A stretch of DNA of 64,000 nt from positions 42,532,001-42,596,000 of the forward strand of contig OZ231126.1 of the NCBI GenBank assembly GCA_965153355.1, written 5' to 3'. The position numbers were made by a program, and so were the translations under genes. This stretch comes from Flaccisagitta enflata (lineage: Eukaryota). Below are positions 4,350 to 36,007 of the stretch, in pieces. The first letter of the stretch is position 1. Every line of letters starts with the position of its first letter. A model generated the notes under the pieces. The model made no database searches. It was not told the DNA's origin and saw nothing but the letters and a program-made list of their open reading frames with translations.

Positions 4350-4352
4350 TTT

Positions 4353-4408
<56 letters not shown>

Positions 4409-5058: not shown

Positions 5059-5102
<44 letters not shown>

Positions 5103-6024: not shown

Positions 6025-6316
<292 letters not shown>

Positions 6317-14266: not shown

Positions 14267-15254
14267 CACGCCCCTTCTTAACTGAGGTAACTTTTTAAAA
14301 ATTCCTCAGCATTGCCATCCATGCAGGGCTGTTATATACATGTTGACAAATGTAACCAGGCAAAAAACAAAAATTTCTGTTGGGATTTTTACGAGAAAAT
14401 GCCGTTAAATGCCGTAAAAAGCCGTAAAATTGCATTTTTAATCATTTTGTTGTGTTAATCTAGCTCGAAAACAACGGCTGTAGCTCAACAGTGTTGATCT
14501 AGCACAGTGACACATATGTGCAGAGACTGAAGTAAAGACGTCACCATTAGACATAATTTCATGCCGTAATTTGCCGTTAAAAATCCATTTTTGACCGTTT
14601 TTTCGGTATTAGCCCCTCACCAAGGTTGATAGTAACTCATGAAGTGCCAGAAAATAGGTATTAGGGCCTAGGACACTCACATTAATAAATTTCAAATTGT
14701 AGATCAGATAATTAGTCTCAATTAAATGCCGTAAAAGGTCGTAAATCACCGTAAAGATAGCATTTTTGGAATTTTTTGTGGCAAATTTGCTTTAAACACC
14801 ACTACACTCATCATATATTGTTTAGACTATGACGAAATAGCCCTAGAATGTATATATGAAAATACTCAGGTTAGCCCGTCCCTACTTGATATCATTTTTT
14901 GCTGAAAAAATGCCGTAAAATCCGCATTTTTCACCATTTTTCAAGATACCACAACATTTCTGTGAAAACCACTAGAAAGTGGATATTTAGGTCTGAGACT
15001 CACTTATGTTATAATTTCAAAGTATAGCATTGTGATTGAGTCTGATTAAAACGCCATTAAGGGCTGTAATATGATATATAATATGATGATCTTGACGATT
15101 TAGTGGGTACTGTTAGTCCAAAGCACTGCTCCTTTTGTCAGAAATTGATAAAACATTGATGAGGCACTGGGAACCATCCATGCAAAAACCTGAGTCAACA
15201 CGCTATCATTCTATACATTCATATGCCGTAAAATGCCATTAAAAAGGCATTTCG

Positions 15255-15341
<87 letters not shown>

Positions 15342-17659
15342 GCATGCGCGCGCATGCATTCTCAAACACGTACACGCAAATGCCAACATGCATACAAACG
15401 CATGTGCGTAGTGACATTTTAATTCTCTTTCAATCTGCCATAGATGAATACGCCATTTATAAGGACCACATTTTGCGGGTGCTTGATTTTTTGTACTTCT
15501 GTTTTCTCTGTTTTTATTATTTTTTTTTACGAATATGATCATTTCATTCATTTCATTTGCTAGTCAGAGAACAAAACTTCTAAAAATCCGTCATGAACTT
15601 GGAGTAAAACAAGGCTGGATACACGGCAATCCAGTCGCTGACAGTTGGGCAGGAGCAGTAATGCGAAAACCGCTTGGAATTTAAAAATGTGACAGACGGA
15701 CCGACCGAGGGACGGACCGACCTACCGACCAACATGGCAAGGTGTAGAGTCGCGTGTCCGCGACTAAAAATTCAAATAGAAAATGGAAAACATTTAAAAA
15801 AGCGCGTTGAGTAAATTGTTAATTAGGTCGATCTCACAAGGGACTGGCCACACAGATGGCGCGACATAAGGATGTGTGTCAGTACCATATTAGCATTATC
15901 ACGCGCATGGGTGTACGGGGAGGGACGTCAGGTTCGGCCGACGTCCCTGTTTGTCGGGCTTACACCCATGATGAAAAAGAAGGCAAAAAATGATAAAAAA
16001 TGTAAAAAAGCATACATGGGGAAGATTTGAAAAGAATGAACAAGTGATAAAGCCTGTTGGGCTTAAAACTCTGTCGGACTTGAAACTGGTTGCTGACAGC
16101 CCTTTGAGATTTCGCGCCATACACTTATGATCAAAGTCGCTGTTTTTGAATCAGTCAAATACGTTAGAACTTAGAACGGTCAAAAATGCCATTTTTATGG
16201 CATTTTACAGCATTTTAAAACCAAAAATGATACCTCATGATGACGGCTTTACTTGAATCTTGGTGTGAATATGTGTCAGTTCCATTTCAGCATTATCAGA
16301 CAAGAGTCGCTGTTTTTGAATCAGTTAAATCTGGTATAATGGTCCAAAACGCCATTTTTATGGCATGTTACAGCATTTCATGACCTACAATGATACCCTA
16401 TGATGACGGCTTTGCTTGATTCTTAGTGTGAATATGTGTTAGTTCCATTTCAGCATTATCAGACAAGAGTCGCTGTTTTTGAATTAGTTCAATTGGATGT
16501 AACGGTCCAAAATGCCATTTTTATGGCATTTTACAATATTTTACGGCATAAAATGATACCCTATGATGACGGCTTTACTTGAATGTTAGTGTGATATGTG
16601 TCAGTGCCATTTTAACATTATCTGACAATAGTATTTGTTTTTGAATCAGTTAAATCTGATATAACGGTCATAAATGCAATTTTTATGGCATTTTGAGGTA
16701 TTTTATGGCATTTTACGGCACAAAATGTTACTCTATGCTGACGTTTTTTCTTGAATCTCTGCGTGAATGTGTGTCAGTGCCATGTCAGCATTAACAGACC
16801 AGAGTCGCTGTTTTTGAATCAGTTAAATCTGATATAATGGTCCAAAACGCCATTTTTACGGCATTTTACAGCATTTTATGACATAAAATGATACCCTATG
16901 ATGACGGCTCTACTTGATTCTTAGTGTGAATATGTGTTAGTTCCATTTCAGCATTATCAGACAAGAGTCGCTGTTTTTTAATCAGTTCAATTGGATATAA
17001 CAGTCCAAAATGCCATTTTTACGGCATTTTACAGCATTTTACGACATAAAATGATACCCCATGATGACGGCTTTACTTGAATCTTTGTGTGAATCTGTGT
17101 CAGTGCTATTTCAGCATTATCTGACAATAGTAGCTGTTTTTGAATTAGTCAAATCTGATATAACGGTCAAAAATGCCATTTTTACGGCATTTTACGGCAT
17201 TTTACGGTATGAAATGATACTCCATGGCGACGGCTTTTTCTTGAATCTCTGCGTGAATGTGTGTCAGTGCCATGCCAGCATTAACAGACAAGAGTCGCTG
17301 TTTTTAAATCAGTTGAATCTGTTATAATGGTCAAAAACGCCATTTTTACGGCATTTTACGGCATAAAACGATACCCTATGGTCACGGCTTCACTTGAATC
17401 TTTGCGTGAATGTGTGTCAGTGCCATGTCAGCATTATCTGACAAGAGTCGCTGTTTCTAAATCAGTTAAATCTGATATAACGGTCAAAAATGCCATTTTT
17501 ACGGCTTTTTACGGCATTTAACGGCATTTTCTCGTAAAAATCCCAACAGAATTTTTTGTTTTTTGCATGGATACATTTGTCTACACATATATAACAGCCC
17601 TGCATGGGTGGCAATGCTGAGGAATTTTTAAAAAGTTACCTCAGTTAAGAAGGGGCGTG
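14267..17659. mobile_element. Non-autonomous Chapaev-like (CMC superfamily) DNA transposon, 3.4 kb
   Basis: Long TIRs (>130 bp) CACGCCCCTTCTTAACTGAGG...CCTCAGTTAAGAAGGGGCGTG; 4-bp TSD AGAT (14263-14266, 17660-17663) inside a 75-mer unit. CAC..GTG ends with a 4-bp TSD fit Chapaev. No transposase ORF. Confidence 0.75.
16135..17530 (+). repeat. ~165-bp subterminal tandem repeats inside the Chapaev-like element
   Basis: The motif agtcgctgtttttgaatcagt recurs at about 16135, 16303, 16466, 16801, 16964, 17291 and 17444, with degenerate units between; diverged inverted relatives lie at ~14400-15250. Confidence 0.85.
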
Positions 17660-18626
17660 AGATGGTGACAGTAGATGATGGAGAAAAGGAGGAAGGGGGA
17701 GGTGGAAGGATCAGATGATGATGGGAATGGAAAGATATGATGAAAGTGGAAGATTTGAGACCTGAGAGGGAAAGTTTGAGGGCAATTATGAGCCCTCAAA
17801 GGATAAGTTTGATTTTGGGCATGACAAGACTAGTTTTAGGCCTTAGAGGACAGAGTTTGGGCCTCAGAGAGCAATTTTTGGCCTGGGAGAGCTAATTTTG
17901 GACCTGAGAGGGCTAATTTGGGGCCTGAGAAAGCTTATTTGGGGTCTGAAAGGGGCTTGCGTAGTGTCGGGGGGGACTGACGTATGGACATATGGACATA
18001 TGGACGTAGGTCTGGAATTTCACCCCTGTGTCACCAGGTTATCGGCCTTCTGGGGATGCTGCCAAAAAGGCTGACCCAAGCATTTGGGCAGAAGTACAGT
18101 GCAAAAACCGCCTGTAAACGCTGAAAAAGCTAACAAACACGGACTGACCGACCAACCGACATACACAGCGGGCTATAGAGTCCCGTGCACGCCACTGTGG
18201 CAATGATCTAACCTTCATAATCCCCAACCCTAAGATCGCAGCCACTGACTAAAGTCCTACAGGAATTCGTTAAAACGGATCCCCTCAAAGAATGATACAA
18301 TGTAAAACGAAGAAGCGTTAGAATTCGCATGTTGAAGCTCTTGAAATTTTGAATCATTTTACAAAGGCGTATTATGCGGTTTGAGCATAAATGCAAGGAA
18401 AAATATAGCAAGGGTTCCCTAGCTTTTTTTATCTCGGTAATACAGGAAACGGAAGTAGCATAATGTTAGATCCAGGTATCCTAATTTTTCTCTCTGGGAC
18501 GTCTTTTCCGGTAAAAACAAAAACTTTATGTAATAAAATGCGGACAACAATATGCAAATGAGATAAAAGAAGATCTGGAAATCACTTCCATGGATTCCTT
18601 TGCAAACAAAAGAACAATGTTTTCTT

Positions 18627-18981
<355 letters not shown>

Positions 18982-19240
18982 GTGAAAGTTGTTTGAGATT
19001 GAATTTTTGCTAGAAATAGAAAAAATGGGGGAGGGGGAAGGAGGAAGAGGCGCTGCTCACGGTCGGCGACCCTTAAGGGGAGTTGAAATATGAATTGGGA
19101 AATCCCGTTGAATTGAGAGTCTGAAAAATCTCGTGGGATTAAGTGAAGGATATGCGGAGAGAGAGAGAGAGAGAGAGAGGAATGAAAGTGGTATAGACCA
19201 GCCATGCGAGAACGAAAATGAAACACTCCCACTCCATTTC

Positions 19241-19353
<113 letters not shown>

Positions 19354-19507
19354 AATTAAAGACTGCAAATGGATCCATTAAGACTTTAAGTTTAATTTTG
19401 TGACAGACTCGATGTGTCACTTGCATTGAGAATCATCATGCAATAGAATTCAGGGATCGGTCACCGACCTCTTTGTATTAGGCATGACATCGCCAGTGAG
19501 TTTAATA

Positions 19508-19765
19508 ATAAGGCCGGATACACGGCTACCCCAGTCGTGTGCGGGTGAGCAGGGGCTGTATTTTAGATAAGTGGAGCATATGTGCAGGAGCAGTAAGGCC
19601 GAAAATTCGAAAACCCCATAAACGCCGAAAAAGTATAGTGTGACGGACGGACTGACTGACTGATGGACTGACAGACCGACGGACGGACTGACAGACCGAC
19701 GGACGGACGGACGGATGGACGGACCGACAAAGCAGGGTGTAGAGTCGCCTAGCACGCGACTAAAA
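19508..19765 (-). mobile_element. HINE-like family 1 copy (homolog ~36990-37245, +)
   Basis: TAGTCGCGTGCTAGGCGACT 5' palindrome, (GTCY)n, 3' GCACACGACT and terminal stem-loop GCCGTGTATCCGGC. Confidence 0.72.
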
Positions 19766-20246
19766 TCATAGAGAATAATTGTCGCAACAGCGTCTTATGT
19801 TCAACGGTATTCGTTGCCCCTCAGTCAGAGTGTGTGGAGACATTGTGATGAGGCAGGCAGCAGCCTATAAGAAGCAAATGATTTATTCTAGACATGGACT
19901 TGTGCCACAAGGCTGAAATTTAAGCCTCGATGCTGGGATTGGAGCCATGAGGATAGGATCTGAACCTTGGGACTGACATTTTAACCTTACTACCTAGCAG
20001 AGGTGTAACGAACTAATCGCCTGGTAGATTAATCGGGTCGATTTTTTGCGTTTCTGAACAATCTTCCTGAGTCACCAAAACAAAAAAAAATCGGGTCGAT
20101 TTTTTGTCCTTTTAAGTTGCATGCTACGCGACTCTATAAGCCACTTTTTGGTCCCTTTCTGTCTGTCTGTCCATCACAACATCATTGTGTTTTTTTATGT
20201 CTCTGAACAGTAGAAGTGGAAGAGCAAACACAGCCATTTCAATTTA

Positions 20247-20610
20247 AACAAGGCCAACACCTATAAGTCGCGTGCGAGACATAAATAATTTAAGATGACT
20301 TTTATTGACTCAAGATGACTTAAAATGACTCAAGACAACTTTAAATGACTTAAAAAGACCTAAAATGACTGAAATGACTACTTTGACCTATTTGACTTAA
20401 GTGACTTAAAATAACTTAAAATAACTTAGAATGACTTAGAATGACTTAGAATGACTTAGAATGACTTAGAATGACTTAAAATGACTTAGAATGACTAGAA
20501 ATAAGTTAAAGTATAATAAAAAAGTAAAGTGTGACGGACCGACGGACGGACCGACGGACCGACGAACGGACAAAGCGGGTTGTAGAGTCGCGTGCACGCG
20601 ACTAAAAAAA
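20247..20610 (-). mobile_element. HINE-like family 1 copy with 10-bp tandem array
   Basis: aacaaggccaacacctataagtcgcgtgc ... (aatgacttag)n ... agagtcgcgtgcacgcgactaaaaa. Confidence 0.72.
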
Positions 20611-21424
20611 AAATTGTTTGTCTCTCAGTCTGTCTGTCTGATTTTTTTTTAAATTGCCATTGCAAGCGACTTAGGTCTAGTGACCTCGTTTTTCTCTGCT
20701 AGCATAGATTCGATTTGACGATGAGACTGATTTAGATATGAGTTAGAAGTAAGAAATGGAAAATTGTTGATGAAATGCATTGCACAACTGCGAAAATGTA
20801 CGTAGATACTTGCAAAACCCACATTCTAAAACAAAATTCAACTTCAAAAGCTTGCTTACAATCTGACGCGAATTGAAAAAAAGACGCAATTTTGAAAGGC
20901 TGATTATGCCATCGAAACTCATGAAAACCATATTTGAATTCTAGGTTGTTAAAAGGCTCCTGGGAAAATACTTTTATTTAGCACCAATCTGGTATTTCTT
21001 TTTTCGTTTGGAAATGGCATTAGTTTGAGTAACTACTTTGCTTATTTCATTTTTGCAGTTGCATAGAAAAATATGCATTTTAGCAAAATGGTCTTTCACT
21101 TTGACTGACTCTAGCTTGTAAACGGTTAAAGATAAAGACCTGCGATTGGTCTAGATTGACAGAGTTTTTTGAAAATCTTCAAAATCACTTTGTCTAATAA
21201 ATATTTGTGGAGCTTATTGAACCGTTATTTTTTTGACAAACACAAAGGAGCGTCTTTTTTTTCAAATTCACGTAGTAAATGAAAAACGCAGTTGTCTCTA
21301 CTGTTAAGTTGGCTCTTACTTCTTTTTTCATATTAATGAATGACTAAACCGTGGATTACTTATCTTGTGACATTGAGTGGCTTCTAGAACATGTTGCTGT
21401 GACTACAAATGATATTTTTACTTA

Positions 21425-21997
21425 CGGATGCAGTCAACCTCTGAAACAATTTTAAGACCCTCTACACTGTTTTTTTTAATTTCTGATAGAAATTTATAAA
21501 AAAACCTTAGCAACCAAGCTTAAGTGTACCTCAATATGTCCTATTTTCAGTGAAACATGAATTTTGAGTCACTTCCCCTCACTAGTGGTATGCCAGCATA
21601 TGATAGTAAATGTTTAAGAAAAGCGCTTTCTCTCATAAATTTGATGGAAAAAGGGTAGGAGTGTCCATCAATGCTTCTTTCTTGATTTTTTTAGTTGTAT
21701 CACACATAAATGATGATCCACAGAAAAAATTTCAAAAATCATTGCAGTTGAAGACCTCAAGTCCTTTAAAAATTGGGGAAACATCGTTTTTTATATGTTT
21801 TTTACATTATCAAAGTCCTTTAAGAATGAGGGCTTGAAACGAGACAAATGCATGAACTCATGAGTCAAATCATAGCTGTGGCGCTGTAGACTTATATCCA
21901 CTTTGATGGGTCGAACAAATCTAGACAAAAGACGCAGAATTTCTCTCTAAATGTTAAGTAGTCAAGGCGCGCAGAAAACGCCTATTTACTGCACTCT
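21425..21997. mobile_element. ~575-bp TTAA-flanked MITE (Kolobok-like), near-identical second copy at 22335-22947
   Basis: Ends TTAA|AGGATGCAGTCAA (intact in the second copy) and TTTACTGCACTCT|TTAA are imperfect inverted repeats; the second copy has a ~39-bp duplicated start. Confidence 0.5.
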
Positions 21998-23361
21998 TTA
22001 AACAGGGGGTCCTCTATCACAAGTTGTTGGAAAATTGATTTTTCTTCATCTAAGTTGTAGGAAATCAAAGTAAAACAAGTTTTTTTCTGCATATTTTGGT
22101 TTGTTTTCTAATATTAGATTGATATTGGGTATTTTTTGTGAGAAAAATCAAAGTTAAAAAATTTTCAAATTGGTCAAAAATAGAATATTTCATGTTTTTT
22201 CATCTTTCTATGATCAAATGTCTGTGTCAGAGGGCCCAACAATTTCATTTTAGTCTTTTTTCAGCTTGACCTATTGTCTAATGTGAAATATTTCATGAAA
22301 AAAACATTTTTGAATAATCGTCTTTTCCCTTTAAAGGATGCAGTCAACCTCTGAAACAATTTTAAGACCCTAAAGGATGCAGTCAACCTCTGAAACAATT
22401 TTAAGACCCTCTACACTGTTTTTTTTTAATTTCTGATAGAAATTTATAAAAAAACCTTAGCAACCAAGCTTAAGTGTACCTCAATATGTCCTATTTTCAG
22501 TGAAACATGAATTTTGAGTCACTTCCCCTCACTAGTGGTATGCCAGCATATGAAAGTAAATGTTTAAGAAAAGCGCTTTCTCTCATAAATTTGATGGAAA
22601 AAGGGTAGGAGTGTCCATCAATGCTTCTTTCTTGATTTTTTTAGTTGTATCACACATAAATGATGATCCACAGAAAAAATTTCAAAAATCATTGCAGTTG
22701 AAGACCTCAAGTCCTTTAAAAATCGGGGAAACATTGTTTTTTATATGTTTTTTACATTATCAAAGTCCTTTAAGAATGAGGGCTTGAAACGAGACAAATG
22801 CATGAACTCATGAGTCAAATCATAGCTGTGGCGCTGTCGACTTATATCCACTTTGATGGGTCGAACAAATCTAGACAAAAGTCGCAGAATTTCTCTCTAA
22901 ATGTTAAGTAGTCAAGGCGCGCAGAAAACGCCTATTTACTGCACTCTTACTTAAAAGGGCTAACTGGCAAAACAAACGACCCATGGTCGATTTTTGGTCG
23001 ATTTTTTAGGGGGGTTTGACCATGATTCATTCGACCTGGTCGATTTTTAAAATCAATAGTTCGTGACACCTATGCTACCTAGGAAATGTTTATAGCACCA
23101 AGTTAAACCTTCCATAACTTGCCTTAGTCTTAATGAATTTAGCTTTTTAAAAAAACCAAAAATGATCTCCAAGAAATTATCTTTCGATCTAGACCAAGCA
23201 GAACCTTCCAGCTCAATTTGTACAAAAGTTACAATAAACAAGGCCGGATACACGGCTACCGAAGTTGCGTGCGGGTTGGCAGGGGCCATATTTGAGGTCA
23301 CCAGACCATTTGAGCAGGAGCAGTGAGGTCAAAGAAATAAAATCATAAAAAAGTCAAAGTG

Positions 23362-23903
23362 TGTTACAGGTAGAATATTGTGTGGAGGCGACAACGGATA
23401 TCGGTAGATGGACGATGGCGCTATTTAATGGATCTATGGACGATTAGAATCATGGATGAAGATTGAAGTTATATATGAGTTATATTTCGATTGCGTTTAA
23501 GTCGTATATGAGTCTTGATCCATATTGTTATTGATATTTATATAAACGATCGATTCTTATACTATTGCTTGTGCGCATAACATTTGTTATATTTCTCTTT
23601 CTCCCTTTAGATATTAGATATATGCCTGAGGCTTTAATGATAGTGTTTTGGGTCGTCTATTGGAATCGTGGTACACTACTTGTTGCTTCTTGATTTCCAG
23701 AGCCATAATACATATACATAGTGCCAGTTGTTGATGAATGCTTACGTGGAACTATCGGAGACACGTTGTGTAAAGACTTGATGAGATACTATCTGACTTT
23801 CATAGTCGTGTGATAACAAGCGTCAGTGGACGGACGCATACTGGCCTTTGCACTCACTCGATATGTCGACGCTCTGAAGGTAAGGGGAAAATATCCTCTT
23901 ACA
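23362..23903 (+). mobile_element. 5' LTR of an LTR retrotransposon (left arm), inserted in a HINE copy
   Basis: Starts TGTTACA where the HINE is interrupted, ends TTACA, and is followed after 2 nt by a TGG-initial PBS; TATATAAA at 23539. Confidence 0.72.
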
Positions 23904-23905
23904 AT

Positions 23906-23918
23906 TGGTGCATCGTCC
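23906..23918 (+). promoter_or_regulatory. Primer-binding site, tRNA-Gly(GCC)-like
   Basis: TGGTGCATCGTCC matches 12/13 to the complement of an invertebrate tRNA-Gly-GCC 3' end (...GGCCGATGCACCA, recalled from memory, not searched). Confidence 0.65.
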
Positions 23919-24570
23919 TATCGAACCATATTACACACTGAGACCACCTCCCGAATGAGAGCCCCCTGGAGGCATTTTGCTACTTCGCTGTATTAGGGCA
24001 TCTGTGGCGTTCAGCCATTAACCGTCGACGACCAGCACTACCGACGCCGTCGGGACCCGCTGGTGTAGGTTCAACGCGCTGTTGTCTGGCGCGCAGATTG
24101 CAACTCCCGGCTTGCAAGTGCCTGGGAGTTCCCGTTCAACAATCCTTCTCTTGGTGCCGCGCGTTGCCTTGCGGTGGCTTGGATACGTGCATCGTGGCAG
24201 GGCACCCAGTCTACGACATTGTCTCTGCCAGTGAACCAAGACTGTCTATCTTTAAACCCAGCTGGTACATTTTCTTCTTACTTGCAAAAAGGCAGACTTT
24301 CAGCACTGAAACAGTCATCTGGATAACGTCTCTAACCTGCAGACGTGAGGTAGTTGGCGAGCGGAGCTGCAGAAGTGCAGAAGAAAGCCTTTTCTTCACA
24401 TTCTTTGGTTGCAGTGTGTTATTGGGGGTGGTTGTTAAAGCCTCAGAAGGGGCGCGTCCAGGCCATTTTGCTTTTCAGTGAAGATTTTAGCTTCCATATC
24501 ATGTACATAGTGTCGATACAACAACAACAGTGTTTTTCATCCTTTTGAAACTTCTCCTTGGAAACGATAA

Positions 24571-25231
24571 ATGGAATATAATCCTTTCGAACGGCGACGC
24601 CATTTTCCATCGCGTGGACGTGCGCCGACACGTGCCACTGCGGACAGCGAACTTACAATTAGCGCCTCGCACACCGAGTCGTGCATAAGGGACACATACA
24701 GGAGCCCCAGCCCTGCTGTGTCCGAAAGTGAACTTGGCGCTGCAGGTGGTGCGCCGGCGAACACATCAAGCCAAACGCCGGTTAACACAAGCACGAGTGG
24801 ATCGGAAGTCCACCATCATCATCATCACCACCACCATCACTATCATCACTACGGCGACTTCGCCGGAAACGACAGACCAAGGAAACGACAGACCAAGGTC
24901 GTGTTCGAGGGAGCGCCCTTACAACAGACCGTACCAGCTGCCAAGCAGGACAAACCGCGGAGTAGACGGTCTGCCCTCCTACGAAGAGGCGGTCTTGGAG
25001 AACAATACTTACGTGAGACACAACCGTCCGCAGCCGCGGGTTGAAAACGAGGACCGCACCTGGGAGTACGCTCCGCGAGCAGCAAGGAGAATCAGCCCAA
25101 TTGCCCGCCCTCCCTACAGAGATAGCGAACGATCAGTAGAAAGAAACGACGGAGGCTTTGGACGCGGCAGAAGAATCAGTTCCCCGCGTGCAGGTTCCCC
25201 GCGTGCAGGTTGGCGCCGTGTCCGTCAGGGG
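24571..25231 (+). pseudogene. Frameshifted copy of the retrotransposon first ORF (putative gag N-terminus)
   Basis: Same protein as the right-arm ORF, but a 16-bp tandem duplication (ggaaacgacagaccaa x2, ~24865-24896) shifts the frame. Confidence 0.55.
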
Positions 25232-26053
25232 CCGTTCAGGCGAGCGGGGCTCCTCGGGTGAATGCTGCGGCGTCCTCCACTGGCGCCTGGGCCTGGGCCT
25301 GGCGTTGGGGTTGAATGTGAAACCCAACCGACTGTCTGGCGACTCTTCCCTCGAACCTGGTCTTGCCTGACTCGCACTTGTTGTTGCCCCCTGACGGACA
25401 CGGCGCCAACCGGTACGCGGGGAACCTGCACGTGGGGAACTGATTCTTCTGCCGCGTCCAAAGCCTCCGTCTCCGTCGTTTCTTTCTACTGATCGTTCGC
25501 TAACTGATCGTTCGCTATCTCTGTAGGGAGGGCGGGCAATTGGGCTGATTCTCCTTGCTGCTCGCGGAGCGTACTCCCAGGTGCGGTCCTCGTTTTCAAC
25601 CCGTGGCTGCGGACGGTTGTGTCTCACGTAAGTATTGTTCTCCAAGACCGCCTCTTCGTAGGAGGGCAGACCGTCTACTCCGCGGTTTGTCCTGCTTGGC
25701 AGCTGGTATGGTCTGTTGTAAGGACGTTCCCTCGAACACGACCTTGGTCTGTCGTTTCCGGCGAAGTCGCCGTAGTGATGATAGTGATGGTGGTGGTGAT
25801 GATGATGATGGTGGACTTCCGATCCACTCGTGCTCGTGTTAACCGGCGTTTGGCTTGATGTGTTCACCGGCGCACCACCTGCAGCGCCAAGTTCACTTTC
25901 GGACACAGCAGGGCTGGGGCTCCTGTATGTGTCCCTTATGCACGACTCGGTGTGCGAGGCGCTAATTGTAAGTTCGCTGTCCGCAGTGGCACGTGTCGGC
26001 GCACGTCCACGCGATGGAAAATGGCGTCGCCGTTCGAAAGGATTATATTCCAT
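25133..26053 (-). CDS. Truncated first ORF of the LTR element (putative gag N-terminus; disordered, poly-His, Arg/Ser/Pro-rich, LPSYEEA motif); last ~30 aa read into the opposite arm
   Basis: 306-aa ORF downstream of the LTR and PBS, open through the spacer. No recognisable capsid or zinc-knuckle domain, so the product is inferred from position only. Confidence 0.45.
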   Translation of the reverse strand: MEYNPFERRRHFPSRGRAPTRATADSELTISASHTESCIRDTYRSPSPAVSESELGAAGGAPVNTSSQTPVNTSTSGSEVHHHHHHHHHHYHHYGDFAGNDRPRSCSRERPYNRPYQLPSRTNRGVDGLPSYEEAVLENNTYVRHNRPQPRVENEDRTWEYAPRAARRISPIARPPYRDSERSVSERSVERNDGDGGFGRGRRISSPRAGSPRTGWRRVRQGATTSASQARPGSREESPDSRLGFTFNPNARPRPRRQWRTPQHSPEEPRSPERPLTDTAPTCTRGTCTRGTDSSAASKASVVSFY

Positions 26054-26720
26054 TTATCGTTTCCAAGGAGAAGTTTCAAAAGGATGAAAAACACTGTTGT
26101 TGTTGTATCGACACTATGTACATGATATGGAAGCTAAAATCTTCACTGAAAAGCAAAATGGCCTGGAGGCGCCCCTTCTGAGGCTTTAACAACCACCCCC
26201 AACAACACACTGCAACCAAAGAATGTGAAGAAAAGGCTTTCTTCTGCACTTCTGCAGCTCCGCTCGCCAACTACCTCACGTCTGCAGGTTAGAGACGTTA
26301 TCCAGATGACTGTTTCAGTGCTGAAAGTCTGCCTTTTTGCAAGTAAGAAGAAAATGTACCAGCTGGGTTTAAAGATAGACAGTCTTGGTTCACTGGCAGA
26401 GACAATGTCGTAGACTGGGTGCCCTGCCACGATGCACGTATCCAAGCCAGCGCAAGGCAACGCGCCGCAAGGCAACGCGCGGCACCAAGAGAAGGATTGT
26501 TGAACGGGAACTCCCAGGCACTTGCAAGCCGGGAGTTGCAATCTGCGCGCCAGACAACAGCGCGTTGAACCTACACCAGCGGGTCCCGACGGCGTCGGTA
26601 GTGCTGGTCGTCGACGGTTAATGGCTGAACGCCACAGATGCCCTAATACAGCGAAGTAGCAAAATGCCTCCAGGGGGCTCTCATTCGGGAGGTGGTCTCA
26701 GTGTGTAATATGGTTCGATA

Positions 26721-26733
26721 GGACGATGCACCA
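26721..26733 (-). promoter_or_regulatory. Primer-binding site (right arm)
   Basis: ggacgatgcacca is the reverse complement of the left PBS. Confidence 0.65.
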
Positions 26734-26735
26734 AT

Positions 26736-27275
26736 TGTAAGAGGATATTTTCCCCTTACCTTCAGAGCGTCGACATATCGAGTGAGTGCAAAGGCCAGTA
26801 TGCGTCCGTCCACTGACGCTTGTTATCACACGACTATGAAAGTCAGATAGTATCTCATCAAGTCTTTACACAACGTGTCTCCGATAGTTCCACGTAAGCA
26901 TTCATCAACAACTGGCACTATGTATATGTATTATGGCTCTGGAAATCAAGAAGCAACAAGTAGTGTACCACGATTCCAATAGACGACCCAAAACACTATC
27001 ATTAAAGCCTCAGGCATATATCTAATATCTAAAGGGAGAAAGAGAAATATAACAAATGTTATGCGCACAAGCAATAGTATAAGAATCGATCGTTTATATA
27101 AATATCAATAACAATATGGATCAAGACTCATATACGACTTAAACGCAATCGAAATATAACTCATATATAACTTCAATCTTCATCCATGATTCTAATCGTC
27201 CATAGATCCATCATAGCGCCATCGTCCATCTACCGATATCCGTTGTCGCCTCCACACAATATTCTACCTGTAACA
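26736..27275 (-). mobile_element. 5' LTR (right arm, inverted)
   Basis: tgtaa...tgtaaca on +, reverse complement of 23362-23903. Confidence 0.72.
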
Positions 27276-27911
27276 CACTTTGACTTTTTTATGATTTTAT
27301 TTCTTTGACCTCACTGCTCCTGCTCAAATGGTCTGGTGACCTCAAATATGGCCCCTGCCAACCCGCACGCAACTTCGGTAGCCGTGTATCCGGCCTTGTT
27401 TATTGTAACTTTTGTACAAATTGAGCTGGAAGGTTCTGCTTGGTCTAGATCGAAAGATAATTTCTTGGAGATCATTTTTGGTTTTTTTAAAAAGCTAAAT
27501 TCATTAAGACTAAGGCAAGTTATGGAAGGTTTAACTTGGTGCTATAAACATTTCCTAGGTAGCATAGGTGTCACGAACTATTGATTTTAAAAATCGACCA
27601 GGTCGAATGAATCATGGTCAAACCCCCCTAAAAAATCTCTTTCCCTACACACAGACCTACAATGACAACTGCAGCATCTTAAATGCTCGTTTTAACACAA
27701 ACTAGATCATCATGGACTGACCAATGGATCAGCAGAATTGATAAAGCCTCCTAGAGTTGTGAGTAGTGAGTGGGTGACTAAAAACGGACCACTGCTCACT
27801 TCTTATTAGTGAAAATAAAAGTCCATGAAAGGCTCTGTCTGTCCTTTGGTACATAGGTCCGTCAGTCATGCTCCATTTGAAAAGTGTGAAAATGCACATT
27901 TGAAATACTGC

Positions 27912-28036
<125 letters not shown>

Positions 28037-28384
28037 TTTCTGTAATTGCTTGTGTGTGTGTGCATCAGAGGGAGGGGTTGCTGTACCACCTGTACGCCAC
28101 TTTGTACGCGGGGAATACACACTGATGCTGTCAAGGTTTTCATCATGATTTGACGTTGAGGTTGAGTTCCTCAGATGACACGAAAAAGACCGAATATGTA
28201 CACTGATAAACCCACAGTCGCGTGGTAGTTTGGGAGGGGTGCCTGTAACATCTCACAGTAACTTAGGGAAACGTGTTTCAAAAAGCGTCAGATCACGTGA
28301 TTGAAGCAAAGAGATTTACGCCATCATTGTTGCCGCTTTGCCCTGGATTGATCGTCTTTTATTCGAAACCTCTTTCCCCTTCCC

Positions 28385-29365
<981 letters not shown>

Positions 29366-30326
29366 TACTCTAAACCATCTCTGTCTGTGTCAGGCAGCAC
29401 TCTTTTTCTGTTGCCCTATTTGCTGTTGCTACTCTGAATTATGGAAGAGAGAGGCCTGCACTGGCTTGTCATCGTTGAGTGTGGAGAGAGAGAGAGAGGG
29501 AGAAGAAGAGAGAGAGAGAGAGAGAGAACTAGAAAGACAGACAGATAGACAGAAAGACAGACAGAAGTATGGTAAGGAGTTGGTCGCAATAGCGTTAGAT
29601 GGTCAGCGCTACCCGATGCCTTTAAGTGCAGGTAAAGATGAGATGGCGAGAGGGGCAGCAACACAGATGGGGTTCAATGACCTATGATCTAGGGGGACTC
29701 ATGGCGGTAAGTTTTAGAGCACGTATTTATTCCATGGCGAATGAGTAATGACATCAATGGAACATCAAAGGAACAAACAAAACCCCATCTACAAGCGCAA
29801 ATACCCCAACAAACAACCTCAACCAACCAGGCCGACAAAAAGCATGCTACTCAGTGTCAGGCCCACACCCACGCGCCCCCGCGCAACTTGAGACTGGAAT
29901 TTGAGCTGTGAGACTGAAATCTAGGCAGTTACTCCCTACTAGTTATTAGGGTGAGATTTAAAACTTTAGGCTGGGGTCTGAGCCTGGAGGATGGTCCTGA
30001 GGCTGGTATTGGCGCCTTGAAGCTGGAATTGAGGCCTTGAAACTGAGACTGAGGCCTCTAAGCTTGGGTTTGAGCCTCAAGGCATGAATGTGGGCTTTGA
30101 CTGAAAAGAGGACGTAATGGGATGAGAAGGAGAAACTTTAATACATATGGAAGCATAGATCATCGACCTTCGGAGCCACTGCCCAAGAAAGGGCAGGAGG
30201 TCCGTGGTTAACATTTGTGTTCTTCATTTGGTTGCTGTGCCCAACTCAGTTCGTAAACCAGTAATTCGTGATCACTTGAGCGCAACCTCGACATGAGCAA
30301 CAGGTTCTAGATGAGAAGAGAGAGAT

Positions 30327-30359
<33 letters not shown>

Positions 30360-30741
30360 CACAGACAGATAGAGAGAGTAGAAAGAGGGGTGGTGGGGTG
30401 GTAATGCCTGCTCCTGCCCACCCGTCCACCCGCCCAACTTTGAGTTACTTTATAGCAGTCTAAATTTATATCTAAGCTGATTTTGTTCCACAACCCATTT
30501 TTGAATTCTGCAGTCCCGGCAATTTTTTCCCATCCTTCCCCCTATTTTCCTTCTCCTCCTCCTTCTCCATCTCCTTCCCTTTGCTCGTGTCTCCATTTTC
30601 TTTGTTCCCATCCTTCCTTTATCCTTCCCTTGCTTTTCCTTATCCATTCTCGCCAGTTGTCACTTTCCTTTTCCCTCGTTTTCTCCTCGTCTCTCAACTT
30701 CTCTCTTCAGCTGTCCCATGAGAATTCCGCAACGATCATTC

Positions 30742-30859
<118 letters not shown>

Positions 30860-31174
30860 CTCTCTATCGCACAAACACACTTTCTAGGAATCTTTTTCTT
30901 TCTGCCCTGTTTCCTTGCCTTCCCCCTGCCCTTTTCCATCTCGTACATGTTACTCATTCATCTTTTTTTTTACCTGCTTTTTTTTCCTCTCTCTTTTTTT
31001 TCATCTTTTTTTTTGCCTTTATACCGCTACTCATTTCCTTCTGTTTCCTTTTCTTTTCTCTGCCTGTTTTCTTCTTTTTTGTAATTTTTATCTTCTCTTT
31101 CTGTTTCACTTTCTTGCTTTCCTTATTTCTTGCTTTCCGTATTTCTCTCCTCCCTTCCTCCTTCTTTCCCCCTC

Positions 31175-31290
<116 letters not shown>

Positions 31291-31855
31291 GTTTCTTTGT
31301 TTCTTTGTTTCTTTGTTTCTTTGTTTCTTTCTTTGTTTCTTTCTGTCTTTCTTTCTTTTTTTCTTTCTGTCTATCTTTCTTTCTGACTTTCTTTCTCTCT
31401 TTTTTTTCTATCTTTTTTTCTTTCTGTCTATCTTTCTTTCTTTCTTATCTAAATTCTTTCTTTTTTTTTTTCGTCTTTCGTTCTTTACATTTTGATTTTT
31501 TGACACTTTTTTCTATTTTTATTTCCACTGTTCCGTTCATTCCTCAACAGCTCCTCATCCTTCTTGATAGCCTCCTACTGTTTTCATCATTGGGCCCTTC
31601 TCAAGTATAATCTTTGTAATTTTTTTATCCTATCCCTAAGCTAATTTTCCCTTTGATAATCACCTGTAACTCAAGATGACCATTCTCATTTCACCTCAGA
31701 AGTACCGTTAAACCATCTAAGGAATAAGTGCATCCACACCTGTAAAAAAGCATCAACTGAGGAAAAGTGTTACTCTTGAAGAAATTGAGCCTTTGACCTT
31801 AATTTGTCGAGGGAGTCTGTCTCATATTAACATATGTTTCATAGCCCACTAAGAA

Positions 31856-32209
31856 ACAAGGCCAACACCTATAAGTCAAGTGCAGGACATAAATAGCTTA
31901 AGATGACTTGAATTGAGTTTAAATGACTCAAGGTGACCTGAAATGACTTAAAATGACTTTAATGACCATATTGACCTTATTGACTTTGGTGTCTTAATGT
32001 AACTCAATATCACTTAAAATGACTTAGAATGACTTAAAATGACTTAAAATGACTTATAAGGGTATTTGAGAAGGAGCTGTGAGCCCAAAAAGCTTTAAAA
32101 CGCCGAAAAAGTAAAAAGGGGACCGACCGACCGACCAACCGACTGACCGACCGACCGACCGACGGACCGACAAAGCGGGGTGTAGAGTCGCGTAGCACGC
32201 GACTAAAAA
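31856..32209 (-). mobile_element. HINE-like family 1 copy
   Basis: aacaaggccaacacctataagtc..., (aatgacttaa)n, (GACC)n, agtcgcgtagcacgcgactaaaaa. Confidence 0.7.
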
Positions 32210-32364
32210 CGTTTGTTTCATTCCCCTACGTACGCAGCTGCATCAGCCCAACCATACGTAACTTATTTTGTCGCGTGTCAGGTTTTTTTTCCAATCCTCA
32301 TGTCCATTGCCTGCTATCGCGATATTGCTTTGATCTCGTCCGCTGTTTTCTCGCCTTCTCTCCT

Positions 32365-32620
<256 letters not shown>

Positions 32621-34616
32621 TGTGTTCTTTTCATTTTGTTCTTTTTAGTCGCGAACATGCGACTCTAGACCCTGCCGTGTCGGTCGGTCGGTCACGTCAC
32701 GTCACGTCACATTTCTGTTTCCTGCTCCTTCCCACCCGTCCACGACTGGGGGGGGGGGAGAGTGTATAGTATACGGCCTTGTTTCTCCTTGTTATCCAGC
32801 GTCCTACCCTCTTTCTTCCCCCTCCTTTCTTCTCCACACCTCTTCTACCATTCTTCCTCCTCCCTCTCCTCCTCCTTCTTCTCCTCCTCCTTTCCCCCTC
32901 CTCCTTCTCCCCCTTGTAATCCCTTCTCATCGCTTCAAAGCTTTCAGTGGGAATATCCAAGGAATCTCTTTTACAAAGAGGCAAATAATAAGCAAAGAAA
33001 GCAGCAGAACCACTACCTCCGGGACTGCCGCGACCGCCACCGCCGCCATCACCATCAACGTCACCGCAACCGCCACCGCCGCCACCATTGCCACTATCGC
33101 CATCACCATCACCACCATCACCAACACCACTGCCACCGTCACCATTGCCGCAGCCACAACCGCTAATAAATTGTCGTTGCCCGGCACTTGCCCCCCTTTC
33201 CCCTTTCCCTTTCCACTTGATACTCATTTCTGCCATTAATATCAACACTTTCGCAAAAGGCGCATTGTGTTGTTGGTATTGTCGCAAATTACGCTGTGAC
33301 CGTTGCTTAGACTTGCAATGATGACGAGGCACCTTCTTTTTAAGGACTTTTCACCACTGGCTCTATCCACTAAGTCTCACAGTCATCTGAGCTCGATATC
33401 GGCCATGTACATATTATACGGGCTTGGACTGTTTTTGTTGCCAGCGCGCGATTCTTTAGCCCGCTATGTCGATCGGTATTTTGGTCTCTCGGTCTGTCGG
33501 TCTGTATATCTGTCTGCCGGTCCATCTGTCGGTACTCAGTAGTATAACATTCACGGTTTTTTGCATCACTGCCCCTGCCCAAATGATTTTTTGACCAATT
33601 CTACTACTTCCCCTGCCTACCCACACGCGACATGTGTGTCCGGCCTTTTCTTCCATTCTTTTGAATTGTGATTTGTCATCTCAGTGAAAAACCTCATTAC
33701 TTTCGATGACTTACTTTACCCGATATCCGGTTGCAGACATGAACAGTATAATCCCACCTTAGCCAATAGAAAAATAACCGTATGTTATGAAAGAGACACC
33801 ATAGACATCGTAAGAAGCTAAATCGATCTGACATTGCACGTGAACTCTATTTTCTGGACGGGCTCTATGGCTCCTCTGTTTTGATGAAACCAAAGCCGGA
33901 TTACACGACCACCAAAGTCGCGGGCGAGTGAGCAGGAGCAGTGATAAAAATGGCTGAGCAGTAATGCAAAAACTACGCATAAAATAAAAAGAAAAAGAAA
34001 AGTGTTACAGACCGACAGGCTGACCAATGGACCAACGGACTTACAGACTGATCATTAGACCAACTGATAGATCGTCCGACAGGCATAGTGACTTTTAGAG
34101 TTGCGTGCACGCGCCTAAAGATATTGATTTGTTTTCTTCTTGCAAATGATATTCATCAACTTGCGTGTTACAAACTATACAAACACATGTAAACAAAAGC
34201 TAGTTTATTTAATTTTGTTTTGTTTCCATATCCATCAACTTTTTAGTGGCGGACCAGTGGCTCTATCAGAGGCTTTATCCATCTCTCTGTCTGTCCATCG
34301 GTCCGCCCGTTGGTCTGTCGGTCCGTTGGTCGATCTGTGGGTCCCAGTTGAGATAAAAAGTGTAAAACCGCACAATTTCCATGCCGCGGTTGTGATTGTT
34401 TTTGTGTCTGTGTGAGTGAAAGTCAGTTAGATGCCCACGCCCGTCCGTCCGTGACCACATAGTCACCCCGCGGTATTTGTTCTATTTCATCCAAGTCAGC
34501 TCCATCTCCCAGCTCTCAGTCCCACTAATTCCGCGCTGTTTATACACTGATTTATCATATTCAGTACCTCTGTACTTGTGTTTCTCTGCGTCTGACCATT
34601 TATATGTCTGTCTGAC

Positions 34617-34663
<47 letters not shown>

Positions 34664-34728
34664 GTCTCTGTCTCTGTCTCTGTCTCTGTCTCTATCTCTG
34701 CCTCTGCCTCTGCCTCTGCCTCTGCCTC

Positions 34729-34905
<177 letters not shown>

Positions 34906-36007
34906 AGAAAGCGCCAAATTGATTACATTTGGCGTTTATAAACCACGCAGCATCGTAGATCGGCTATCGGCATTCCTCCCACGTCCTTCACTTGGGCCGT
35001 CTTATAATCCTCTCGTTCCCACGCAAGCATCGATATAAGATACGTTAGACAGCCTGAGCTGACTCTGCCTGACATTTACAGACTCTGCCTCTGACTATTG
35101 CTTGACTCTGCCTGACCCTGCCTGACACTTGCAGACTTTGCCTAACTTTGCCTTACTCTGCTGAACTCCGTGACTCAGCCTGACTCAGGCTGGCTGCTGT
35201 CCTCTGCCTGTGTATGAATTCCTGACTATGACTTTGCGGTCTCTGCTCAACTCTGCCTGACATGGTTTGACGTAATCTCAAAATGAAATCATTTATCTAC
35301 AAAATCGCCCACGATATCGCCATCTTTGATAAGTTTCTTTTCTCTCACTAACTTACTAACTGAAACAGACAGCGAACAATGTCATTACGCCGCTTTTGCG
35401 ATCCCTTTATACAGCAAGTGACAAAATGAATCCCTGCGAGAGGCGAAATCTAGCGTTGCATATGAAAGTTAGACAACATTACTACTCAATCCCATCTAAG
35501 AAGCGCATGAATATCATGTACACAGCCGGGGCGACATCGAAATGAAGTAGTGCTTTGCAAGCTTTAACGAAAAGACAAAGAAAATAATGAAAGATTTATT
35601 GTGATGAAGTCAGTGAAAAGATTGAGTAAGAGGCTTGGTGAAACCACGAAGCTGCGTTATATAGCCTCGATAGATTGAGGACTTTCGCAAAATCCACCAA
35701 TAATTGCAATATTTGTGAACGGATGATTATGGATGCAAATGAGTATTTAGCTTGAGCTTAGCTTTCCCTTTGAAGCTTTTTCAGCAAATTTTGCCTTTAT
35801 ATCATTCAGTGCACAAGTGGATAAATGTCTTCAATCCGAAGAGCATTCCATTTTCGGGCAACGGCCCCGAAGTGGCTGATGTCCTATGTCTCACATATGT
35901 GGAATTTGTTTTTATTCTTCTTGTCTTTTTTCTCCGCCCATTCCCTATGAAACAAATTCCAGCCTCAAGGCTCATGTCGAGGCCTCAAGGCTAAAATCTC
36001 AGCCTTA

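What the first reader, a model, noticed from the sequence alone, without database searches (positions are those of the whole stretch)
23000..27637. Palindrome of an LTR-retrotransposon 5' end with two inward-facing LTRs: candidate natural hairpin-RNA 'killer' locus
Seen: ~2.2-kb arms around a 156-bp spacer. Each arm holds an LTR (TG..CA, TATA-like box), a PBS, a leader and the first ORF, all pointing to the centre; pol and the 3' LTR are absent. A transcript from either LTR that crosses the centre would fold into a stem well over 1 kb. The arms differ by substitutions and arm-specific tandem duplications (16 bp left; 15, 15 and 6 bp right), which argues against a simple chimeric read. Known: maize Mu killer is an inverted duplication of a partial MuDR that silences its family in trans through hairpin small RNAs. 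Inference: this may be a self-promoted animal LTR equivalent. Function is untested.
Basis: partly seen in the sequence, partly recalled or inferred. Interest (0 to 1): 0.85.

Follow-up and report, generated by a model that had tools for sequence, protein, structure and literature searches.

The report
Inverted duplicate of a gene's front half
A 4.6-kb near-perfect palindrome is present in the assembly, but it is built from the upstream region and first 60% of an ordinary lineage-restricted gene, not from a retrotransposon; whether it exists in the animal and makes silencing RNA is untested.

Summary
The palindrome is in the assembly as described: arms 23000-25231 and 25388-27637 around a 156-bp spacer.

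The annotation is wrong. The inward-facing ORF is not a gag. It is residues 1-268 of a 450-aa protein with no Pfam domain, known from 12 intact near-identical sequences and a few diverged relatives. The family has 7 representatives among 1.84 billion proteins. The spacer is the continuation of the right-arm coding sequence. The rest of the gene is not in the window. The supposed LTR start is the tail of a very high-copy SINE-like repeat, and the inner arms have single-copy-like depth.

Best reading: a young fold-back inverted duplication of promoter region plus 5' coding sequence, with both copies disabled. About 0.55-0.6 that it is a real genomic structure and about 0.27 that it is an assembly or amplification chimera.

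Public reads could not test the fold-back junction, and the RNA run gave no test. A transcript across the centre would form a long hairpin against the parent gene, as Drosophila hpRNA loci do, but nothing shows transcription.

The parts
23000..25231 (+). Left arm of the palindrome (2232 bp): repeat-derived outer part, gene upstream region, and 5' coding sequence pointing to the centre
   Evidence: arm limits and differences; P0001 aa 1-104 and 99-215 match 24571-25231 in two frames
23237..23365 (+). SINE-like very high-copy repeat in the outer part of the arm (mirror copy about 27272-27401).
   Evidence: depth 651,499-1,154,267 in X1 over 23131-23484, against 198-813 further in; loose ends at 23352-23354 and 27285; seven other partial copies in the window; alignment with 36492-36771
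23366..24570 (+). Low-copy upstream/leader region of the gene fragment. The promoter is presumed here but not shown. Mirror: 26054-27271
   Evidence: depth like the unique flank; no other copy in the window; no Pfam or Rfam hit
24571..25044 (+). Left-arm ORF, 157 aa. It matches the intact protein for 104 residues, then is frameshifted by the 16-bp tandem duplication at 24865-24880
25232..25387 (-). Spacer. It is the continuation of the right-arm coding sequence (about aa 216-267 of P0001), so it is the single-copy fold-back loop, not foreign DNA
   Evidence: P0001 aa 1-268 aligns without interruption to 26053-25229. X4 record 20 spans 25341-25453
25388..27637 (-). Right arm (2250 bp), mirror image of the left arm, carrying three private tandem duplications (26450-26464, 25503-25517, 25472-25477)
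25133..26053 (-). Right-arm ORF, 306 aa. Residues 1 to about 275 match the intact protein's aa 1-268. The ORF then runs through the fold-back junction into antisense left-arm sequence (a 31-aa tail matching no intact sequence) and stops
25229..25234 (.). Fold-back junction 25231/25232. The Pro268 codon of the intact protein is already read from the inner end of the left arm, implying 2-3 nt of junctional microhomology. No GT splice donor follows
   Evidence: the sequence read directly
27637..27647 (.). Outer junction of the right arm with unrelated flank. The partner outer junction is 22999/23000, inside an 11-bp x2.1 tandem repeat at 22984-23006
   Evidence: only 160 of the 966 letters of X3 record 16 lie on 27647-27806 (0 differences); the other 806 do not lie on the right arm

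Best explanation
This is a young fold-back (inverted) partial duplication of a cellular gene. It covers about 1.57 kb of upstream sequence, including a SINE-like repeat, plus the first 215-268 codons of a 450-codon, apparently uninterrupted coding sequence. The gene encodes a disordered, His-rich protein of a small lineage-restricted family.

How it formed (inferred): a replicating or resected DNA end within the coding sequence switched to the complementary strand 156 nt away, at 2-3 nt of microhomology. It then copied back outward for 2.2 kb. A second switch or join ended the copy at 23000 or 27637. The 3' 40% of the gene is missing at this locus.

Present state (shown): neither copy can encode the protein. 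The left copy is frameshifted by a 16-bp duplication. The right copy is truncated at codon 268 and carries private changes.

Consequence (inferred, not shown): if the upstream region in each arm holds the gene's promoter, convergent transcripts would cross the centre. They would fold into a hairpin with a stem of 0.66 kb of coding sequence plus leader and a 156-nt loop. That is a Dicer substrate with 98-99% identity to the parent mRNA.

I think the structure is most likely a neutral or null structural variant with hairpin potential, not a proven silencer.
For: Structure: (arms, spacer, 12 substitutions, 5 indels).

Gene identity:
- 6 proteins with E<=0.01 among 3108 candidates, the best 95% identical over 90% of the ORF.
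- P0001 aa 1-268 maps to 26053-25229. Nothing in the 64 kb matches aa 269-450.
- 12 intact sequences of 443-450 aa.
- only 7 hits at E<=0.001 among 1,835,955,588 representatives.
- no Pfam family above cut-off in the 2 window ORFs or in 6 homologues.

Not a repeat family: the inner-arm word depth is 79-813 in X1, against 503 for the flank 27733-27900 and about 10^6 for the SINE-like part. One search finds no further copy in the window.

Two separately evolving copies, not one molecule read twice:
- Both arms share H11, where 12 of 12 intact sequences have R.
- The right arm alone has V63, a SERSV duplication, a DG insertion and SPRTG (0 of 12 intact sequences).
- The left arm alone has the frameshifting duplication (0 of 12).
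- Of the 6 arm-difference sites readable in listed contigs, 5 show the left-arm letter (25412, 25414, 25709, 25727, 25866) and 1 the right-arm letter (25724).
- 5 of the 12 substitutions are CpG losses in the right arm and 2 are CpG differences the other way. This looks like a mutational signature, not a sequencing-error one.

Position and context:
- The palindrome is internal, with unrelated flanks on both sides.
- The region holds older inverted duplications at 72-98% identity.

Fold-back geometry: a single-copy spacer continuous with one arm and 2-3 nt of microhomology. This matches the human fold-back duplications in PMC3907307 (passages read).

Hairpin potential.
Against: - No independent read support for the fold-back junction. 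None of the 24 listed pieces from 3 DNA runs bridges 25231/25232, 22999/23000 or 27637/27638 (18,335 pieces were not shown, and the tool warns that a hole proves nothing).
- One X3 contig gives the right flank a different left neighbour. At least that haplotype lacks the right-arm junction.
- Divergence is uneven: 1 substitution in the outer 1421 bp and 11 in the inner 811 bp. A single duplication date does not predict this.
- Of the 8 differing codons, 6 are synonymous. This looks more like variation between functional alleles than neutral decay, although 4 of the 6 are third-position CpG changes.
- The outer arm ends lie in repeated DNA, where a false assembly join is easiest.
- No evidence of transcription. 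X22 laid 0 reads and is no test.
- No database protein carries the junction-derived tail.
- No promoter was demonstrated.
Confidence: 0.57

Rival explanations
1. Assembly or library artefact. A fold-back chimeric molecule (for example from whole-genome amplification of a small animal, or a long-read chimera) was built into the contig, and the outer ends were joined to unrelated loci through the repeats at the arm ends. The true locus would be the intact gene.
For: - The geometry (turn onto the opposite strand 156 nt away, short microhomology) is what inverted amplification chimeras look like. PMC6218980, PMC13265396 and PMC9984789 were seen only as abstract starts in the listing.
- No listed contig bridges the fold-back or outer junctions.
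- The X3 contig has another left neighbour at 27647.
- The outer 1.4 kb of the arms is virtually identical, while other individuals differ from the window by about 1.4-1.7% (6 of 349 and 3 of 210 letters in X1 records 1 and 8).
- The arm ends lie in repeats.
- The mostly synonymous differences would fit two functional haplotypes mixed during polishing.
- The window has an N run at 61886-61918, so it comes from a gapped or scaffolded assembly.
Against: - One chimeric molecule gives identical arms. Here there are 12 substitutions and 5 indels, each arm has private states seen in 0 of 12 intact sequences, and one is a frameshift.
- The palindrome is 22 kb and 36 kb from the window ends and has different flanks, so two further false joins would be needed.
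- Reads from a true single locus would polish both arms to the same consensus.
Confidence: 0.27
2. Active self-promoted hairpin-RNA (hpRNA or endo-siRNA) locus. The palindrome is real, is transcribed from the duplicated promoters, and is diced into small RNAs that repress the intact parent gene in trans.
For: - A long inverted repeat made from a protein-coding gene's 5' part, 98-99% identical to the intact sequences.
- About 1.2-1.57 kb of upstream sequence is present in both arms.
- A very stable predicted stem.
Against: - No RNA evidence at all (no test).
- The promoter is not located.
- The structure is young and at least one wild haplotype appears to lack it, so selection for a function is not indicated.
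- Most young inverted duplications are expected to be neutral and short-lived (general knowledge).
Confidence: 0.13
3. One reading: two inward-facing 5' ends (LTR, PBS, leader, gag) of an LTR retrotransposon, acting as a Mu killer-like silencer of its family.
For: - TG..CA-like ends and a TGG-containing stretch can be picked out by eye.
- One X1 contig (record 2, depth 1074) shares only 24059-24289 at 95% identity and diverges on both sides. So a related sequence exists elsewhere.
Against: - No gag, protease, RT or integrase domain in the ORFs or in the 450-aa intact protein.
- No direct repeat of the supposed LTR.
- Single-copy-like depth.
- The family has 7 representatives among 1.84 billion proteins.
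- The 'LTR start' is a SINE tail.
- The only reverse transcriptase in the window is 29 kb away at 56978-58816.
Confidence: 0.03

Closest known systems
Drosophila hairpin-RNA (hpRNA) loci such as Nmy, Tmy and Dsim-hp58 (PMC10292708, PMC10317233; passages read)
   Same: A long inverted repeat derived from a fragment of a protein-coding gene, with extended near-perfect complementarity to that gene. Young and lineage-specific. May arise near or far from the progenitor.
   Different: There, transcription, Dcr-2/AGO2-dependent siRNAs and target derepression are shown. Here none is tested. Each arm here carries the gene's own upstream region, so it would be self-promoted from both sides. The stem is far longer and less diverged. 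The host is an unnamed marine animal, not a fly.
Maize Mu killer (PMC3440606; only the abstract start in the search listing was seen)
   Same: [quoted passage not shown]
   Different: Mu killer duplicates a transposon (mudrA plus TIRA) and is thought to be read through from a flanking gene. Here the duplicated unit is not a transposon, and any target would be a host gene.
Fold-back inverted duplications with a single-copy spacer (human constitutional cases, PMC3907307; passages read)
   Same: Non-inverted and inverted copies separated by a spacer present once and continuous with one copy. Short inverted microhomology at the junction (2-8 bp there, 2-3 nt inferred here). Loss of the sequence distal to the break.
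   Different: The scale differs: Mb-sized duplications with 766-70,466-bp spacers there, 2.2-kb arms with a 156-bp spacer here. Here the inverted copy ends after 2.2 kb at a second junction and does not run to a chromosome end. That fits a two-step template switch better than a dicentric intermediate.
Palindromic chimeric reads from whole-genome amplification or long-read libraries (PMC6218980, PMC13265396, PMC9984789; listing only)
   Same: Inverted join onto the complementary strand close to the turning point.
   Different: Such chimeras have identical arms and normally run to the read end. Here the arms differ at 17 places and the palindrome is embedded between unrelated flanks.

Membership tests
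LTR retrotransposon (5' end) | Two long terminal repeats in direct orientation, or other copies or solo LTRs of the same LTR | tested here: not met
   the only other copy of 23366-24570 in the 64 kb is the mirror arm. No whole genome is held.
LTR retrotransposon (5' end) | First ORF is a gag (capsid or zinc-knuckle), followed in full-length copies by pol | tested here: not met
   no Pfam family above cut-off in 2 window ORFs and 6 homologues; the intact ORF ends at 443-450 aa; 7 relatives among 1.84 billion representatives.
LTR retrotransposon (5' end) | Primer-binding site complementary to a host tRNA 3' end next to the LTR | not testable with these tools
   No tRNA gene in the window and no genome held. 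tRNA sequences from memory were not used.
LTR retrotransposon (5' end) | Repeated (multi-copy) in the genome | tested here: inconclusive
   inner-arm word depth is comparable to the unique flank in X1 and X3 and about 1000-fold below the SINE-like part. The tool warns that this depth is not a copy number.
hpRNA / endo-siRNA hairpin locus | Long inverted repeat with extended complementarity to a protein-coding target | tested here: met
hpRNA / endo-siRNA hairpin locus | One transcript spans both arms | tested here: inconclusive
   the RNA run X22 laid 0 of 12.16 million records, which the tool flags as no test; no database protein carries the junction tail.
hpRNA / endo-siRNA hairpin locus | Dicer-dependent 21-22-nt small RNAs from the arms, and target derepression when they are lost | not testable with these tools
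   No small-RNA data were reachable.
Mu killer-type transposon silencer | The inverted duplication is of a transposon of an active family | tested here: not met
   as for the LTR rows above
Fold-back inverted duplication | Single-copy spacer continuous with one copy, lying between the direct and inverted copies | tested here: met
   the coding sequence runs uninterrupted from the right arm through 25387-25232. X4 record 20 bridges 25387/25388.
Fold-back inverted duplication | Short inverted microhomology at the spacer/inverted-copy junction | tested here: inconclusive
   the Pro268 codon (CCC) of the intact protein overlaps the inner end of the left arm, giving 2-3 nt. The wild-type DNA beyond the junction was not available to confirm.
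Fold-back inverted duplication | The structure exists in genomic DNA (junction seen in independent molecules) | tested here: inconclusive
   no listed contig bridges 25231/25232; nothing in the JGI metagenome contigs.
Amplification or long-read palindromic chimera | Arms are copies of one molecule (identical apart from read error), and the palindrome reaches the end of the molecule | tested here: not met
   12 substitutions and 5 indels; private protein-level states in each arm; unrelated flanks on both sides.

The most novel reading that the evidence does not exclude
A newborn, self-promoted hairpin-RNA gene. A fold-back duplication placed two copies of a fast-evolving orphan gene's promoter and 5' coding sequence face to face. 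Either promoter then drives a >0.7-kb perfect hairpin whose siRNAs silence the intact parent gene in trans. It would be an hpRNA-type suppressor caught at birth, still polymorphic, in a marine animal far from Drosophila.
Probability: 0.12. Interest if true: 0.65.

Novelty: new member of a known kind. Interest (0 to 1): 0.3.

Why it matters
If real, this is a very young inverted duplication (arms 0.54% diverged, below the roughly 1.5% between individuals). It is caught before decay and made from a gene's own promoter region and 5' coding half.

That is the raw material from which hairpin-RNA loci are thought to arise. Such loci are well documented in flies, but I know of few outside them (recall, not searched). 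A polymorphic example would allow carriers and non-carriers to be compared directly.

If it is an artefact, it marks a misassembly that removes the 3' part of a real gene from the assembly.

Either way, the retrotransposon annotation should not be propagated.

Tried and rejected
- Whole-genome search for other copies: no genome is held for this window.
- Earlier notes of this scan: none by place or by sequence.
- Read support: the single read-laying run returned only short contigs. None of the listed ones bridges the fold-back or outer junctions. The poly-A RNA run of organism A laid 0 reads, which the tool calls no test.
- JGI metagenome contigs: the protein-pattern scan found 574 pattern matches but no relative. 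The exact 32-nt fold-back junction had 0 matches. Both are uninformative because the organism seems absent from that collection.
- Short database proteins carrying the junction-derived tail: 1 candidate, none significant.
- ESM Atlas look-up of the intact protein: no usable hit.
- Pfam on 10 further window ORFs: only RVT_1 at 56978-58816, unrelated to the palindrome.
- Rfam over 19000-38000: nothing in the arms.
- tRNA scan: 0 genes, so the PBS claim could not be tested.
- Exon-boundary idea. I considered that the junction coincides with an exon end, because P0003 departs from P0001 just after the same residues. I rejected it for two reasons. P0003 remains weakly alignable beyond that point. 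No GT donor follows the junction in the window.
- Asymmetric-decay idea. I considered that nearly all derived changes lie in the right arm. The tally from readable sites is 5 right and 1 left, too few to build on.
Full report
**1. The observation**

The palindrome is in the sequence as described.
- The repeat finder gives five ungapped inverted blocks that together make arms 23000-25231 and 25388-27637 around a 156-bp spacer. The blocks are 96-100% complementary.
- A gapped alignment of the left arm against the reverse complement of the right arm gives 2214 aligned positions with 12 substitutions (0.54%).
- The indels are: 2 bp at 23424-23425; a 16-bp tandem duplication in the left arm only (24865-24880); and 15-bp (26450-26464), 15-bp (25503-25517) and 6-bp (25472-25477) insertions in the right arm only.
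- Homology stops sharply at 22999/23000 and 27637/27638, and the flanks are unrelated to each other.
- Eleven of the 12 substitutions lie in the inner 811 bp (24421-25207). The outer 1421 bp has one.

**2. What the arms are made of**

Each arm has an ORF pointing to the centre: 24571-25044 (+, 157 aa) and 26053-25133 (-, 306 aa). Neither is a gag.
- Pfam finds nothing above cut-off in either ORF.
- The protein database search found 6 proteins with E<=0.01 among 3108 candidates. The best, P0001 (450 aa), is 95% identical over 90% of the 306-aa ORF. The others are 90, 55, 51, 37 and 44% identical. None has a Pfam domain above cut-off.
- tblastn of these proteins against the window places P0001 residues 1-268 on 26053-25229 without interruption, that is, through the right arm and the whole spacer. 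Residues 1-104 and 99-215 fall on the left arm in two frames, split by the 16-bp duplication.
- Nothing in the 64 kb matches residues 269-450.
- P0001's 90% cluster holds 10 full-length variants of 448-450 aa, from contigs of 1950-10,899 nt, plus one unrelated 46-aa member. P0002's cluster holds two variants of 443-444 aa.
- A profile of eight family members, searched against 1,835,955,588 representative proteins, found 7 hits at E<=0.001. The ESM Atlas gave nothing usable.

The ORF is therefore the 5' 60% of a small, lineage-restricted, apparently intronless gene for a low-complexity protein.
- Its invariant core is PSYEEAV..NTY.RH, preceded by a His run.
- That an L/PPxY-like motif can bind WW domains is my recollection and was not tested.

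**3. Not an LTR element**

- The outer part of each arm is other repeated DNA. 23075-23354 is 94.7% identical to 36765-36492, and 23237-23333 has six further partial copies in the window.
- Word depth over 23131-23484 is 651,499-1,154,267 in run X1. It is 198-813 over 23485-24369 and 503 on the unique flank 27733-27900. X3 and X4 show the same contrast.
- Read loose ends at 23352-23354 and 27285 show the consensus continuation of that repeat. The alignment with 36492-36771 shows the repeat running to about 23365.
- The supposed LTR has no second copy in the window.
- There is no tRNA gene to test a PBS against, and Rfam finds nothing in the arms.
- The only reverse transcriptase is 29 kb away (RVT_1, 56978-58816).

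**4. Geometry and likely origin**

- The spacer, read on the minus strand, is the direct continuation of the right-arm coding sequence. The right copy is simply 156 nt longer than the left.
- At 25231/25232 the sequence therefore jumps from gene position x on one strand to position x+156 on the other strand and runs back.
- The codon for Pro268 of the intact protein (CCC, 25231-25229) is already part of the left arm's inner end. So 2-3 nt are shared at the junction. The wild-type DNA beyond was not available to confirm this.
- No GT follows the junction, so it is not an exon end.
- This matches the fold-back signature in PMC3907307 (passages read). There, all 21 sequenced junctions had a single-copy spacer between the direct and inverted copies, and 13 had 2-8 bp of inverted microhomology.
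- Unlike those cases, the inverted copy here stops after 2.2 kb at a second junction. That fits two template switches during replication or repair better than a dicentric intermediate (inference).
- Which outer junction is native is not settled. The left arm's 23075-23354 is colinear with an older, larger inverted repeat (section 8), which favours the left arm.

**5. Real or artefact?**

*For a real structure*
- The arms are not copies of one molecule.
- Both arms have H11 where 12 of 12 intact sequences have R.
- The right arm alone has V63, a duplicated SERSV, an inserted DG and SPRTG (0 of 12 intact sequences).
- The left arm alone has the frameshifting duplication (0 of 12).
- Contigs from other samples could be read at 6 of the 12 arm-difference sites. 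At 5 they carry the left-arm letter (25412, 25414, 25709, 25727, 25866) and at 1 the right-arm letter (25724). So both arms carry derived states.
- The other six sites were not readable from the listing, which omits 10 rows.
- Five substitutions are CpG losses in the right arm and two are CpG differences the other way.
- The palindrome lies 22 kb and 36 kb from the window ends.
- The window holds several older inverted structures.

*Against*
- None of the 24 listed contig pieces bridges 25231/25232, 22999/23000 or 27637/27638. The tool notes that 18,335 pieces are not shown and that holes prove nothing.
- X4 record 20 does bridge 25387/25388, but that is the gene's natural continuity.
- X3 record 16 has 966 letters, of which only 160 lie on 27647-27806, with no differences. 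By the orientation convention verifiable on X1 record 2, the other 806 letters lie left of 27647 and do not match the right arm. At least one wild haplotype therefore has a different neighbour there.
- The outer arm ends are in repeats, where false joins happen.
- Divergence is uneven along the arms.
- Six of the eight differing codons are synonymous. That resembles variation between functional alleles, although four of the six are third-position CpG changes.
- Palindromic chimeras are a known product of whole-genome amplification with long reads (PMC6218980, PMC13265396, PMC9984789; abstract starts in the listing only).

I put about 0.7 on a real genomic structure, which includes the 0.13 for an active hairpin locus, and about 0.27 on an artefact.

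**6. How it would work**

Shown:
- Neither copy can make the 450-aa protein.
- The central 1341 nt folds into one continuous stem at -1302.5 kcal/mol.
- The arms are 97-99% identical at protein level to the intact sequences.

Inferred:
- Each arm carries 1.2 kb of low-copy upstream sequence. If that holds the promoter, transcription from either side crosses the centre and yields a hairpin. Its stem would be the leader plus 0.66 kb of coding sequence, with a 156-nt loop. In an animal with RNAi it would be diced into siRNAs matching the parent mRNA.
- This is the architecture of Drosophila hpRNAs. These 'typically derive from their targets' and include young inverted fragments of single exons (PMC10317233 and PMC10292708, passages read).

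No evidence bears on transcription.
- The only RNA run laid gave 0 reads out of 12.16 million records read, flagged as no test.
- No database protein carries the junction-derived tail.

My estimate is about 0.13 overall that it is an active small-RNA source.

**7. Comparison and novelty**

- It works like an hpRNA precursor or a Mu killer in geometry. It is not a transposon derivative, so it is not a Mu killer analogue in target.
- Membership in the hpRNA class is open, because transcription and small RNAs are untested.
- As a structural variant it is a small-scale member of the fold-back inverted-duplication kind.
- I rate it a new member of a known kind, of modest interest until the junction and its RNA are checked.

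**8. Context seen along the way**

- The window is repeat-rich. A large old inverted repeat pairs 72-19997 plus 23075-23354 with 44862-36492, at 80-98% identity.
- 75-bp satellite arrays occupy 6741-14266 and 40724-41100.
- 21426-21998 is tandemly repeated at 22375-22948, at 99% identity.
- Further palindromes lie at 42565-44380, 40381-40723, 48427-48733, 51542-51966 and 63161-63785.

Supplementary files of the cited papers were not consulted. None bears on the claims made here.

Noticed in passing
window 72-23354 versus 44862-36492: A much larger, older inverted repeat in colinear blocks of 80-98% identity (for example 17659-18877 with 40343-39113 at 93%, and 19475-19997 with 37280-36758 at 97%). 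Its left arm is expanded by insertions and satellite. Its innermost block, 23075-23354, is the outer part of the young palindrome's left arm.
   Followed up: partly
window 6741-14266 and 40724-41100: Arrays of a 75-bp satellite unit with strong G over C skew (GC skew up to 0.90 at 12001-14000). Three blocks lie on the + strand and a short inverted block lies in the partner arm.
   Followed up: no
window 21426-21998 and 22375-22948: A 99% identical tandem duplication with a period of about 950 bp, immediately left of the palindrome. 300 nt of it are 100% identical. Read depth suggests the unit is also repeated elsewhere.
   Followed up: no
window 23237-23365 and partial copies at 1094-1150, 7431-7479, 10224-10272, 19507-19598, 37157-37248, 52883-53010, 54141-54235: A SINE-like element with extremely high copy number in organism A and in marine metagenomes (word depth about 10^6 in X1). 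ARAGORN and Rfam give no tRNA-like hit.
   Followed up: partly
window 42565-44380; 40381-40723; 48427-48733; 51542-51966; 63161-63785: Further local palindromes at 72-95% arm identity. The first has arms of about 580 bp containing about 160-bp internal repeats. They may be foldback-type elements or older fold-back duplications.
   Followed up: no
window 19136-19318: A hairpin of about 140-180 nt that hits a dozen unrelated miRNA models on both strands, all far below their gathering scores (best 43.5 bits against 80). This is probably a generic hairpin effect, not a known miRNA.
   Followed up: no
window 56978-58816 (-): A 612-codon open frame with a reverse-transcriptase domain (RVT_1, E=1e-13). 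It is presumably a non-LTR or other retroelement fragment, unrelated to the palindrome.
   Followed up: no
window 25179-25211 and the family alignment: The gene is prone to small in-frame tandem duplications. The 15-bp unit GTTCCCCGCGTGCAG is present 2.2 times in both arms and in P0001-type sequences, but once in P0002 and P0017 (SPRAG once). The arm-specific duplications are the same kind of change that separates the P0001-type from the P0002-type sequences.
   Followed up: partly
window 61886-61918: A run of 33 N, either an assembly gap or a masked stretch.
   Followed up: no
window 24059-24289: One X1 contig (427 nt, depth 1074) matches only this 231-bp leader segment, with 11 differences, and diverges on both sides. 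A related sequence therefore exists elsewhere in organism A, perhaps the P0002-type paralogue.
   Followed up: no
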